A stretch of DNA of 64,000 nt from Leucoraja erinacea (Eukaryota), in the NCBI RefSeq assembly GCF_028641065.1, contig NC_073384.1:57412001-57476000 (forward strand). The letters run 5' to 3'. The position numbers and the translations under genes were made by a program. Each line of letters starts with the position of its first letter. Position 1 is the stretch's first letter. This document shows positions 188 through 28,464 of the stretch, one piece after another. Under the pieces are notes generated by a model. The model ran no database searches. It was not told where the DNA came from and worked only from the letters and a program-made list of their open reading frames with translations.

Positions 188-1725
188 CAGTGCCCTCCAT
201 AATGTTTGGGACAAAGACCCGCCATTTATTTATTTGCCTTTGTGCTCCACAATTTGAGATTTGTAATATTAAAAAAAATCACATGTGGTTAAGTGCACAT
301 TGTCAGCTTTTAATAAAGACCATTTTAATACATTTTAGTTTCACCATGTAGAAATTACAGCTGTGTTTATAGATAGTGCCCCCCCATTTCAGGGCACCAT
401 AATGTTTGGGACACATGGCTTCACAGGTCATTGTAATTGCTCAGGTGTGTTTAATTGCCTCCTTAATGCAGGTATAGGAGCGCTCTCAGCACCTAGTCTT
501 TCCTCCAGTCTTTCCCTCACCTTTGGAAACTTTTATTGCTGTTTATCAACATGAGGACCAAAGTTGTGCCAATGAAAGTCAAAGAAGCCATTATGAGACT
601 GAGAAAATAGAATAAAACTGTTAGCGCCATCAGCCAAACCTTACTGTAGGCTTACCAAAATCAACAGTTTGGAACATCATTAAGAAGAAAGAGCGCACTG
701 GTGAGCTTACTGATCGCAAAGTGACTGGCAAACCAAAGAAGAGAAATACAGAAATACAGAGGCTACGCTGCAAGATGCAAACCACTGGTTATCCACAAAA
801 ATAGGATGGTCAGGTTACAGTTTGCCAAGAAGTACTTAAAAGAGCAACCACAGTTCCGGAAAAAAGGTCTTGTGGACAGATGAGACGAAGATTAACTTAT
901 ATCAGAGTGATGGCAAGAGCAAAGTATGGAGGAGAGAAGGAACTGCCCAAGATCCAAAGCATACCACCACATCTGTGAAACACAGTGGTGGGCGTGTTAT
1001 GGCCTGGGCATGTATGGCTGCTGACGGTACTGGCTCGCTTATCTTCTTTGATGATACATTTGCTGATGGTAGTAGCATAATGAATTCTGAAGTGTATAGA
1101 CACTATCAGCTCAAGTTCAAACAAATACCTCAAATTCTACAGCAAGATATGGGAGGGGTAGTTGAGGCCAGTTCATTGGCTATATTTAAGAGGGAGTTAG
1201 ATGTGGCCCTTGTGGATAAAGGGATCAGGGGGTATGGAGAGAAGGCAGGTACAGGATACTGAGTTGGATGATCAGCCATGATCATATTGAATGGCGGTGC
1301 AGGCTCAAAGGGCCGAATGGCCTACTCCTGCAACTATTTTCTATGTTTCTATGTCTAAGACAATGATCCCAAACATATTGCTAAAGCAACAAAGGAGTTT
1401 TTCAAAGCTAATAAATGGTCAATTCTCGTGGCTGTCAATCACCCGATCTGCAAAGGATATGCAACAAAAATACTAAACATGACTACTTTCATTTACATGA
1501 CATTGCTGTGTCCCAAACATTATAGTGCATTGAAATGGGGGACTATGTACAAACACTGCTGTAAGTTCTACATGGTGAAACCAAAATGTATAAAAATGGT
1601 CTTTATTAAAATCTGACAATGTGCACTTTAACCACATGTGAGTTTTCCTCTTACAAATCTCAAATTGTGGCAGGGGCAAATAAATAAATGATGGGTCTTT
1701 GTCCCAAACATTATGGGGGGCACTG
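188..1725 (+). mobile_element. Tc1/mariner DNA transposon (IR/DR type), degenerate
   Basis: TA on both flanks. Long TIRs: cagtgccctccataatgtttgggacaaagaccc and gggtctttgtcccaaacattatggggggcactg. Inner direct repeat near 390-415. Transposase remnant WTDETKINL...VKHSGG.VMAWAC...QQD/NDPKH with frameshifts and a deletion. Confidence 0.95.
1157..1353 (+). mobile_element. CR1 (HER1-like) LINE 3' fragment nested in Tc1
   Basis: VVEASSLAIFKRELD...GYGEKAGTGY and a (ttctatgt)n tail. It splits the Tc1 QQD|NDPKH motif. Confidence 0.9.
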
Positions 1726-8100: not shown

Positions 8101-8527
8101 TCTTTTATTTTAAAAAACCTATTTTAAACTCCAGTTTAAAATACAATGTTTTTCACCTCTCAAAGCAAAACATAAGGAATTTATGTCTTTCTTTTTATTT
8201 TAAATGTCCATGTAATACATGTTTTACCACACTAAAGCTAATGATTATAAAGCATCTTTCGCAACCATCAGCTGTTCCAAAGTGCCTTGTAGGTAATGAA
8301 TGTTCACTGTTCTAATGTATGGAGATGTGGTATCCAATTTGCATAGAACATGGTCCACAGACATTCATGAGAAAAATCACCAAATGCGTTCCAATGACAT
8401 TAGGTGGAATGTCAGTATTAGGCAGTTCCTTGGGACAACTTCCATGCTCCAAGATAATGCCATGTGATCTTTATGTCCATCTGAGAGGACAGATGGGACT
8501 TCAATAATGTCAGTACTGAATGTTCAA

Positions 8528-8673
8528 GCTTCTTTGTGGATTGTCACCTTGTCGTGGTGGAGAAGCTTGTGTGGACCTGAGATCCTGAGAGCGATGCCGT
8601 CTGGAGCAATGCTCCTGGTAGGGCCATCCATGGCGGTAAGGTCGAGGGGGAGGACTCTGACAAAGAGCAATCC
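8528..8673 (+). ncRNA. Candidate HDV-like self-cleaving ribozyme
   Basis: P1 gcttctt/gagaagc; P2 ggattgt/gcaatcc; P3 cacc/ggtg; L3 ttgtcgt; J4/2 Caaaga. Pairings assigned by eye. Confidence 0.65.
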
Positions 8674-8958
8674 AACCAAGATCTCAACGGTGGAACAGGC
8701 GGAGGATGATGGCTGACCTTAGTGGAGCGTCACAACGGCTGGGAAGGCGGATGAAGGTTGCAGCAGAAAAAGGTCTCCGGTCGTTTTGGACTCCATGCCA
8801 CTGGATCCTGACCCAGATCTGTCAAGGACCGTGGGGTGGCTGTCTGTGCACGAGTCTCCCCACGTTAAACGCACAGGCGTCACGCACAGGCGTCCTCCAT
8901 ATAGGGAATAGCACCCTGGAGACACCCATGGTCAGCCTGACCGAAGGGGGCCTAAGAA
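8528..8958 (+). mobile_element. Complete short RTE-derived non-autonomous retroelement
   Basis: 10-bp TSD gaatgttcaa (8518-8527 and 8959-8968). 5' end resembles RTE-clade (Rex3/BovB) 5' UTRs: caccttgtcgtggtgg, cctggtagggcca, gacaaaga. Confidence 0.8.
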
Positions 8959-9321
8959 GAATGTTCAACATTGATCATGTGTTTAAATTCATAGGAACAG
9001 GGGTAAACCATTTTGTCTCTCGTATATTGGCAGATCGAGGTCTGAAATCCATATATTCACCTTATATCTTGATACCTCGAGTAAACTGAAAATCTATCAC
9101 TCTCCAATTTAATACTTGCACAAATGATCTGGCATCAACTACAGTTTGCAGAATAGTGTTTCAAACTTCTTCAATGCTTTGTGGTAAAAACACTTCTCTA
9201 TTTCATTTCAAAAAATTCATGGCTGTAGTTTTTAAGACAATGGTCCCAACCACATCCAACACTCCTCAATCAGAAAAGTTTTTCAAACCAAGTGGTTTTC
9301 ATTTTCTTCTTATCCTATTAC

Positions 9322-27569: not shown

Positions 27570-28464
27570 ATGAACAATCCCCGTGCCACAGGCGTCCATA
27601 CTCCGTGGAAGCCCCATGAAATAATGGCAGTATTAAACAAATTCCCTGATAGAAAGAAGTCACCTGCTGCCTTTATAGACTATTTGAGAACCACAATGCG
27701 TGTATATCATGCAGATTCCCGGGATTTATGGAAGACCATACAACAGATAATTACTCCAGCTGAAAATACTAAATTTCTAGTAGCCCTAGGACACCCAACA
27801 TGAAGCCTTGGCAAACATAGTAATGGATGACAGTGCAAGAGAAGAGGCTGTTTTAACAGCCCTTGCATACACGTTTCAAACAGCAAGCGATCTAACACGA
27901 ATTCTGGAAAGAAAACCAGAAAAGGGTGAATTTTTAGACCGTTTTTCAAAATTATCCATGGACCAATCAGGTGACTTAAACTATCAAAATGGAGCAAGTT
28001 CCCCACAATATTGTGCTATCTTATTGAATTGGCTTCCCACTACAGTAGCGGACTCAATTAAGACTGATAACAGGGACTGGTCTGAGAACTGCGCCAGTCA
28101 AATGGCCAGAGCTGTGAGGCACTATTGGAAGGATGGTAGGAAACAGGAACATTATCCTGTAACTAGAAGAGAAACTGAACATATGGTTAAGAAGGAAGAA
28201 CCAAGCTCTGACTCAGGACCACGGAGTCCCCAAATGTTAGTGAGGAACGGAATGGGAGAAATTAGAGTCCCAGACTCATCAGATTATTATTACAATTATA
28301 CTCCCAATCTAGAACCCATTCCAATGGAACAAAGGGGTAAAACAAAGCCAACCATATTATCTAATCAATGTTACACTTGTGGGGGAATGGGACACTGGAG
28401 TCGAGCCTGTCCGACAAGGGAGCGAGTGAGAGAGGGGTCAAAGAAAGGATTTCCAGGATTATGA
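27570..28464 (+). pseudogene. gag: Retroviral gag (capsid-nucleocapsid), frameshifted
   Basis: VHTPWKPHEIMAVLNKFPDRKKSP capsid-like start; CYTCGGMGHWSRAC zinc knuckle at 28369-28410; frame break near 27805. Confidence 0.8.

What the first reader, a model, noticed from the sequence alone, without database searches (positions are those of the whole stretch)
8528..8958. Complete 431-bp non-coding RTE-derived retroposon that begins with a candidate HDV-like ribozyme
Seen: a 10-bp TSD (gaatgttcaa) bounds the element, and its first base G8528 starts a nested pseudoknot. The pairings are P1 8528-8534/8560-8566, P2 8538-8544/8667-8673, P3 8545-8548/8556-8559, L3 UUGUCGU, a long P4, and J4/2 C8661-AAAGA. 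Known: RTE and R2 elements use 5' HDV-like ribozymes to release themselves from read-through transcripts. Inference: this is a ribozyme-headed SINE-like family with no Pol III promoter, mobilised by an RTE. It lies antisense to RPS6KC1, so it should not cut the host pre-mRNA. P1.1 looks weak.
Basis: partly seen in the sequence, partly recalled or inferred. Interest (0 to 1): 0.7.

Follow-up and report, generated by a model that had tools for sequence, protein, structure and literature searches.

The report
Ribozyme-headed hybrid RTE mini-retroposon
This 430-base insert is one of an estimated thousand-plus copies of a short jumping element whose first 145 bases keep a base-pairing pattern shared with many related elements and are predicted to cut the RNA free at its first base, a known trick; this copy lies backwards in an intron, so it likely leaves its host gene's message intact.

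Summary
The element, its 10-bp target duplication and the HDV-type fold are real. Conservation in three families of this genome begins at C8529, and target duplications end there in 24 of 36 copies. G8528 is a copy-specific extra base. Corrected fold: P1 8529-8535/8559-8565, a 3-bp P3, and P1.1 = G8551-C8566 plus U·U. P2 and the catalytic C8661 stand as written. P1, P2 and the P4 base show two-sided compensatory changes across 18 heads (score 0.50 against 0.26 shuffled). A first-base C and a one-pair P1.1 occur in active ribozymes (L1Tc, C. briggsae). The head comes from an APE-RT LINE of this genome, but the last 33 bases match a different short family, so the element is a hybrid. No LINE with that tail was found. 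The copy is intronic and antisense in a PX-MIT-kinase (RPS6KC1-like) gene. Cleavage is untested, and RNA reads were uninformative. This is a new member of a known kind (NARTc, R2 SIDE, bipartite RTE). The scan noted similar elements before in other genomes.

The parts
8518..8527 (+). Left target-site duplication (10 bp)
   Evidence: The 10-mer is found only here and at 8959 in the window.
8528..8528 (+). Extra G at position -1, likely untemplated; can extend P1 by pairing C8566 and so compete with P1.1
   Evidence: G in 7 of 47 intact family-A starts. One extra base in 6 of 36 TSD-bearing copies, a G only here. P1 duplex -4.9 without and -8.3 kcal/mol with it.
8529..8673 (+). HDV-like ribozyme fold; predicted cut 5' of C8529
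   Evidence: Covariation; family boundaries.
8529..8565 (+). P1 8529-8535/8559-8565 (7 bp, C1-G); P3 8546-8548/8556-8558; L3 8549-8555 with U8549 and G8554 (U20/G25 equivalents)
   Evidence: The majority 5' and 3' strands are exact complements in families A, B and C. This copy has two U·G wobbles.
8538..8673 (+). P2 8538-8544/8667-8673, plus C8545-G8665 with A8666 bulged
   Evidence: 8 of 8 pairs show two-sided changes; six of them were recovered blind by RNAalifold.
8550..8567 (+). P1.1: G8551-C8566 plus U8550·U8567
   Evidence: G 85 of 86, C 84 of 86. These positions were fixed by the search pattern, so no covariation was seen; no double-changed variant in the genome.
8573..8656 (+). P4 domain; basal stem 8573-8577/8652-8656 and a large conserved distal part
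   Evidence: 5 of 5 basal pairs covary. The distal part is absent in L152.
8661..8664 (+). J4/2, C-N-A-A, with predicted catalytic C8661
   Evidence: C in 84 of 86 family-A heads, 21 of 27 matched B and 17 of 17 matched C heads; 3 and 6 unmatched.
8674..8909 (+). Rest of the leader, shared with the 5' UTR of an APE-RT LINE (LINE-A)
   Evidence: 19 of 20 LINE loci match the leader, most of them to base 380-390, and continue into endonuclease coding DNA (Pfam). Four majority differences over about 380 bases.
8911..8928 (+). Short piece resembling the LINE-A endonuclease coding region (16 of 18 bases); its last 6 bases overlap the tail
   Evidence: The exact 12-mer alone has E = 0.15, so this is only suggestive.
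8923..8954 (+). 3' tail hairpin shared with a different short family (D), not with LINE-A
   Evidence: 31 of 33 majority positions match family D; no match to LINE-A 3' ends.
8955..8958 (+). Short (AAG)n tail; the 3' boundary is ambiguous by 3 bases because the TSD begins with GAA
   Evidence: Sequence; longer (AAG)n tails in other copies.
8959..8968 (+). Right target-site duplication

Best explanation
This is one copy of a short, non-autonomous retroposon that joins the 5' leader of an APE-RT (likely RTE-clade) LINE to a 3' tail shared with another short family, and its first 145 bases form a conserved HDV-type double-pseudoknot pairing pattern predicted to self-cleave just before C8529. Mechanism: a copy read through in sense by a host Pol II transcript would fold co-transcriptionally. 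C8661 and a Mg2+ ion would cut at the -1/+1 bond and release an RNA that starts at +1 whatever lies upstream (inferred from HDV-like ribozymes). An RTE protein would bind the tail hairpin and (AAG)n end, and copy the RNA by target-primed reverse transcription (inferred). That gives the observed insertions that start at +1 C with 0-2 extra bases and 8-18-bp duplications (shown). This copy is antisense in its intron (shown), so the fold would not form in the host pre-mRNA. Its extra G and two P1 wobbles likely slow it even if read in sense.
For: Boundary, independent of pairing: conservation starts at the first P1 base in A (n=86), B (n=30) and C (n=23), each the exact complement of its own P1 3' strand. 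TSDs were found in 36 of 101 copies with a tail (38 copies without a tail dropped); they end 0 bases from +1 in 24, 1 base in 6, 2 bases in 4 and further off in 2; mismatched-flank control 6 of 784. Contigs of three related organisms pile loose ends at 8529 (62, 42, 53). Metagenome heads classed without using P1: 7 of 7 pairs in 11 of 17, against 1 of 102 other matches; at least 6 Watson-Crick pairs in 10 of 17, against 39 of 254 cross-family swaps; +1 is C in 12 of 14 and -1 is G in 1 of 14. On a structure-blind alignment of 18 heads the covariation score is 0.502, against 0.260 +/- 0.019 shuffled and 0.107-0.205 slid; RNAalifold recovers P2, P3 and the P4 base. Precedent: L1TcRz cuts before C1 and a G at -1 disrupts its one-pair P1.1 (PMC3185411, passages); the C. 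briggsae ribozyme has C1 and a P1.1 of one standard and one non-standard pair, and is fast (PMC13635239, passages). LINE link.
Against: No cleavage was measured. PolyA RNA of a related organism shows no pile-up of read starts, and about 95 reads of one locus run across the 5' junction, on the mate strand that usually means antisense. P3, L3 and P1.1 were fixed by my search pattern, so their invariance is no test, and no P1.1 double change was found. The J4/2 motif was used to class the heads and to set the ends of the aligned heads. The heads are related (about a dozen lineages), so the shuffles overstate significance. P1 is pyrimidine/purine-biased: 66 of 254 swaps also reach 7 of 7 when G·U is allowed. 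Only 1 of the metagenome heads showed endonuclease DNA in the flank held. The window copy alone folds into another structure with z = 0.14. No Rfam ribozyme match. No LINE with this tail was found. An internal promoter starting at +1 would give the same boundary.
Confidence: 0.8

Rival explanations
1. The fold is conserved but not needed as a nuclease: the head works as an internal Pol II promoter, a protein-binding site or an end-protecting structure, and the sharp +1 boundary is a transcription start.
For: In L1Tc the same 77 bases are promoter and ribozyme, and the cut site equals the start site (PMC3185411). The large P4 is more conserved than catalysis needs. No start pile-up in RNA.
Against: C-N-A-A in J4/2 and U/G in L3 are kept while helix sequences turn over. 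A promoter does not explain RNA covariation between +1 and +37. The two roles do not exclude each other.
Confidence: 0.13
2. One reading: cleavage before G8528 with a G1-C pair and a 4-bp P3.
For: In this copy G8528-C8566 strengthens the helix (-8.3 against -4.9 kcal/mol), and G is the usual first base of viral HDV ribozymes (recalled).
Against: G at -1 in 15 of 86 intact starts over three families and 1 of 14 metagenome heads. The fourth P3 pair fails in families B and C. It would use up C8566 and abolish P1.1.
Confidence: 0.03
3. It is an ordinary Pol III SINE, or a dead internal-deletion fragment of LINE-A, and the fold is incidental.
For: One A-box-like and four B-box-like matches with one mismatch each (no shuffle control run). 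LINE-A copies are degenerate.
Against: No tRNA gene in the window and no exact A or B box. Many copies share one length (most at 420 bases to the tail motif) and carry their own TSDs, so the short form was amplified as a unit. Covariation is strong.
Confidence: 0.04

Closest known systems
L1TcRz in L1Tc/NARTc of Trypanosoma cruzi (PMC3185411 and PMC4035085, passages read)
   Same: HDV-like fold at the exact 5' end, cut before C1, 3-bp P3, one-pair P1.1 disrupted by a G at -1; carried by both the LINE and a non-coding derivative.
   Different: Other clade and host; 77 bases with a short P4 against about 145 here. Activity is shown there and untested here.
R2 SIDEs and R2/R1 hybrid SIDEs of Drosophila (PMC3414825, abstract read)
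   Same: Ribozyme head plus 3' recognition end without a gene; the hybrids carry the head of one LINE and the tail of another, as inferred here.
   Different: Rare and confined to 28S rDNA; this family is dispersed and abundant.
Bipartite non-autonomous RTE elements: RTE-N1/N2_Lch, RTESINE1/2, WALLSI3, Bov-A, RTE1-N1_LA (PMC5786205, parts 1-4 of 5 and supplement part 6 of 15 read)
   Same: RTE 5' end plus RTE-type 3' end, no small-RNA head; tail exchange is described. By eye, the printed RTE-3_Crp 24-155 and RTE-2_Croc segments closely resemble this head and leader.
   Different: [quoted passage not shown] Head and tail here come from different families.
HDV-like ribozymes of RTE elements (Ruminski et al. 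2011; not held, known here only through PMC5786205, PMC6765202 and PMC3774820)
   Same: Proposed release of promoterless RTE RNA from read-through transcripts, with the cut at the 5' junction.
   Different: Cannot tell whether this C1 / G-C P1.1 type or these families are in its tables.
C. briggsae, Ackermannviridae and CPEB3 HDV-like ribozymes (PMC13635239 and PMC4836649, passages read)
   Same: P1.1 of one standard pair plus a U·U or C·U pair; U20/G25; catalytic C in J4/2; C1 in C. briggsae.
   Different: Compact P4; not described as retroposon heads in the passages read.

Membership tests
HDV-like ribozyme | Nested double pseudoknot: P1, P2 and P4 helices | tested here: met
   Two-sided changes in 5 of 7 P1, 8 of 8 P2 and 5 of 5 P4-base pairs; P1 boundary test.
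HDV-like ribozyme | 3-bp P3, 7-nt L3 and P1.1 pseudoknot | tested here: inconclusive
   Pairable in 17 of 18 (P3) and 18 of 18 (P1.1) aligned heads but fixed by the search pattern; no P1.1 double variant. A changed but paired P3 is seen by eye in printed RTE-1_OAf and RTE1-N1_LA.
HDV-like ribozyme | Catalytic C and downstream A in J4/2; U20 and G25 in L3 | tested here: met
   C8661 84 of 86, A8664 85 of 86, U8549 84 of 86, G8554 73 of 86. The L3 bases were partly selected by the pattern; C8661 in family A was not.
HDV-like ribozyme | Cut site immediately 5' of P1 | tested here: inconclusive
   Indirect only: element boundary equals the first P1 base in 24 of 36 TSD-bearing copies; RNA reads show no start pile-up.
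HDV-like ribozyme | Mg2+-dependent self-cleavage giving 2',3'-cyclic phosphate and 5'-OH | not testable with these tools
   Needs a bench assay.
Bipartite non-autonomous RTE | Carries the 5' end of an autonomous LINE | tested here: met
   Leader shared with LINE-A copies that continue into endonuclease and RT coding DNA.
Bipartite non-autonomous RTE | Carries the 3' end of the same LINE | tested here: not met
   LINE-A ends in another hairpin and (GAT)n; the tail matches family D at 31 of 33.
Bipartite non-autonomous RTE | No protein gene and no small-RNA head; TSD and microsatellite tail | tested here: met
   No tRNA; no exact A/B box; the ATG-started frame has no Pfam match; TSDs.
Bipartite non-autonomous RTE | Partner LINE belongs to the RTE clade by RT phylogeny | not tested
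   Only Pfam endonuclease and RVT_1 hits and by-eye likeness of the leader to Repbase RTE families printed in PMC5786205.
SINE (Pol III head) | tRNA-, 7SL- or 5S-derived head with internal promoter | tested here: not met
   ARAGORN found none; Rfam found none; only one-mismatch box-like matches.

The most novel reading that the evidence does not exclude
One C1-type HDV-like ribozyme with a G-C/U·U P1.1 and a large conserved P4 heads a whole branch of RTE/BovB retrotransposons, from invertebrates to mammals (the full fold reads by eye in the printed elephant RTE1-N1_LA and most of it in aardvark RTE-1_OAf). It is a portable, promoter-independent launch module that can be grafted onto other LINEs' tails, as here. 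Thousands of dispersed vertebrate copies would then cut host pre-mRNAs when inserted in sense, which predicts antisense bias in introns.
Probability: 0.35. Interest if true: 0.62.

Novelty: new member of a known kind. Interest (0 to 1): 0.4.

Why it matters
Ribozyme-headed, gene-less retroposons are known (NARTc, R2 SIDEs), and RTE ribozymes have been proposed, so a specialist would not be startled. The value is practical. Covariation fixes the fold and the predicted cut site for a widespread RTE head that Rfam does not model. It gives a natural minimal version (L152) for assay. It makes testable Kojima's open question of why RTE, Ingi and R2 alone yield bipartite elements. It may also bear on RTE 5' UTRs used in gene-writing tools (PMC13708176, passages).

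Tried and rejected
Rfam scan of 8300-9200: two chance matches on the minus strand, no ribozyme. Single-sequence folding was uninformative. Search for RNA runs: no RNA holder listed; the one raw RNA run laid twice gave no start or end pile-up. Search for a LINE carrying the tail: by blast to the element, the 30 loci were the short element or pieces of it, as were 9 of the 10 loci (two of these are one place); the tenth (L231) led to family D, whose 25 fetched copies were short non-coding elements. A double change at P1.1: 0 matches. Pfam on 85 minus-strand frames of at least 38 codons gave no kinase hit; the exons were found by motif instead. The PDB search gave only weak MIT-domain matches; the Atlas gave no answer. 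Leader-tail pairing (lead from e1-8169519): a three-way junction can be drawn in several A, LINE-A and C copies, but the energies are within one SD of shuffled leaders (-8.5 vs -6.9 +/- 2.8, n=49; -7.4 vs -6.0 +/- 2.2, n=7; -7.1 vs -6.5 +/- 2.1, n=12), so it is not accepted. No covariance model was built. Of 120 metagenome pattern matches about 100 are chance hits in GC-rich DNA and served as control. Ruminski 2011, Webb 2009 and a 2011 review were not held; their tables and supplements may already list this head.

Full report
Observation. The 10-base duplication is real and unique in the window, at 8518-8527 and 8959-8968. The DNA between is a repeat of the window's own 2.19-Gb genome, G000: 3403 candidates, the 40 best at 93-100% identity. 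A 32-base head pattern with up to two mismatches occurs 2193 times. Of 20 unselected family-A heads, 12 carry this element's tail, 4 a LINE tail and 4 neither, which suggests about 1,300 full short copies. The 57 short copies examined differ from their majority by 3.5% on average, the window copy by 3.1%; about half were top hits to the window copy, so this is biased low. The same insertion exists in three other coded organisms. Minus-strand exons for PX, MIT and kinase parts lie on both sides, so the copy is intronic and antisense. The gene name RPS6KC1 is recalled from that architecture.

The register is off by one. Stacking copies on the core motif, without using pairing, conservation begins at the base equal to C8529 in family A (n=86) and at the matching C in two other families of this genome, B (n=30) and C (n=23). 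In each, the first seven majority bases are the exact complement of the seven after P3, and the three sequences differ. The base before is mixed: G in 7 of 47, 6 of 20 and 2 of 19 intact starts. Target duplications were found in 36 of 101 copies that had a tail within 1.5 kb (38 without one were dropped). They end 0 bases before +1 in 24, 1 base in 6, 2 bases in 4 and 5-6 bases in 2; mismatched flanks gave 6 of 784. In the window copy the one extra base is G8528. Contigs of related organisms pile their loose ends at 8529.

The fold. Seventeen were classed as related heads by P3 closure, P4 base and J4/2 alone. P1 formed 7 of 7 pairs in 11 of these 17 against 1 of 102 others, and at least 6 Watson-Crick pairs in 10 of 17 against 39 of 254 cross-family swaps; +1 was C in 12 of 14 and -1 was G in 1 of 14. 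With G·U allowed, 66 of 254 swaps also reach 7 of 7, so part of the P1 signal is composition. On a MAFFT alignment of 18 heads (the window copy, one each of A, B and C, and 14 metagenome heads picked as one or two per lineage), 85% of cells pair against 71.6 +/- 1.2 shuffled. The covariation score is 0.502 against 0.260 +/- 0.019, and slid controls give 0.107-0.205. Two-sided changes occur in 5 of 7 P1, 8 of 8 P2 and 5 of 5 P4-base pairs. RNAalifold, not given my structure, finds P2, P3 and the P4 base. Limits: the heads are related, so shuffles overstate; P3, L3 and P1.1 were fixed by my pattern; a search for a P1.1 double change found none. C8661 is kept in 84 of 86 family-A heads. The single window sequence has no unusual stability, and Rfam has no matching ribozyme model.

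Precedent for the odd features. L1TcRz cuts before C1, has a 3-bp P3 and a one-pair P1.1, and a G at -1 extends P1 and disrupts P1.1 (PMC3185411, passages). That is the state of this copy: the P1 duplex goes from -4.9 to -8.3 kcal/mol with G8528, against -9.1 for a near-majority copy. The C. briggsae ribozyme has C1 and a P1.1 with one non-standard pair and is among the fastest (PMC13635239, passages). CPEB3 has one G-C and one U-U pair in P1.1 (PMC4836649, passages). R2 ribozymes vary widely in P1, P2, P4 and J1/4, and extra bases at 5' junctions are common where the cut is at the element end (PMC3774820, parts 2-3 of 7, section 16 and passages).

Origin. Nineteen of 20 loci fetched with L031's downstream DNA match the leader, most to base 380-390, and run on into endonuclease and RT coding DNA (Pfam Exo_endo_phos_2 below cutoff, RVT_1 above cutoff). 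Majorities of short element and LINE-A differ at 4 places in about 380 bases. By eye, Repbase RTE-3_Crp and RTE-2_Croc segments printed in Kojima's supplement closely resemble this head and leader; no RT tree was made. The tail is not LINE-A's, which ends in another hairpin and (GAT)n. The last 33 bases match family D at 31 positions, a separate short family with another leader. Just before the tail, 16 of 18 bases match LINE-A's endonuclease coding region and overlap the tail by six bases, which would fit a template switch; the exact 12-mer has E = 0.15, so this is a suggestion. No LINE with this tail was found. There is no tRNA gene and no exact A or B box.

Mechanism. Shown: boundaries, duplications, conserved pairing, conserved core bases, head and tail sources, antisense intronic position. 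Inferred: read-through transcription in sense, co-transcriptional self-cleavage before C8529 by C8661 with Mg2+, recognition of the tail by an RTE protein, target-primed insertion. I put this at 0.8. The main rival is a non-catalytic or promoter role with the same +1 (0.13). RNA reads did not decide: in the one raw polyA run, 475 and 420 reads were laid, no start pile-up appeared, and about 95 reads of one locus cross the junction on the strand that usually means antisense.

Known relatives and novelty. It works like L1Tc/NARTc and the R2 SIDEs, and its head-tail mismatch parallels the R2/R1 hybrid SIDEs (PMC3414825, abstract; PMC4035085, passages). [quoted passage not shown] A review says the same of RTEs and some SINEs (PMC6765202, passages). 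Eight searches listed no paper that, by title, abstract start or the passages read, describes this family or this fold for vertebrate RTE/BovB heads. Ruminski 2011 and Webb 2009 were not held, and their supplements may cover it. The leader-tail pairing suggested by one of them was tested and not supported above shuffles.

Verdict. Observation partly confirmed, interpretation partly supported. New member of a known kind; interest 0.4. The boldest reading left open is that this C1-type ribozyme heads a whole RTE/BovB branch up to mammals and travels as a module onto other tails (0.35; interest 0.62 if true).

Noticed in passing
L038/L039/L253 (family B); L047/L056 (family C): Two further short RTE-like families share the core motif but differ in helices and tails: 234 and 46 exact matches to their 23-base patterns. 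B ends in (TAAG)n; C ends in a hairpin with short (ACG/ATG)n.
   Followed up: partly
L231, L300-L324 (family D): A separate family of about 420-450 bases (1687 candidates) with another leader, the same 33-base tail and (ACT)n. Its head lacks this core motif and was not folded.
   Followed up: partly
L152:1162-1245 (-): Metagenome head with the whole fold in about 80 bases and P4 reduced to a short hairpin: a natural minimal version.
   Followed up: partly
L095: Two heads in tandem, 158 bases apart.
   Followed up: no
window 8706-8957 and family-A leaders: An ATG-started plus-strand frame of 60-69 codons is the longest frame in 32 of 57 short copies; no Pfam match for the window copy's frame. 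It may be chance or an upstream frame of the LINE.
   Followed up: partly
window 8886-8954: The leader end can pair with the tail as a three-way junction in several A, LINE-A and C copies; energies do not clear the shuffles.
   Followed up: yes
L041, L057, L060, L031: Other short derivatives join the same head to the true LINE-A tail (4 of 20 unselected heads, against 12 with the hybrid tail and 4 with neither).
   Followed up: partly
window 8200-9300 against runs X16, X18, X19: The insertion is present at the same site in three other coded organisms (flank contigs run into the element to 8557-8558), so it predates their split.
   Followed up: yes
L082/L083: Two tails in inverted arrangement about 155 bases apart.
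   Followed up: no
window 27790-28464 (+): A 224-codon frame with a CCHC zinc knuckle (Pfam E 5e-7), gag-like by recall, inside the same host gene.
   Followed up: no
window 840-1262 (+): A frame that looks like a Tc1/mariner transposase fragment (label recalled).
   Followed up: no
PMC5786205 supplement, part 6: Printed 5' ends of RTE-3_Crp, RTE-14_Lch, RTE-7_PM, RTE-4_PM, RTE-60_LMi, BovB_Plat, RTE-1_OAf and RTE1-N1_LA show the same P4 and J4/2 features by eye; RTE1-N1_LA shows P1, a changed P3, L3 and P2.
   Followed up: partly
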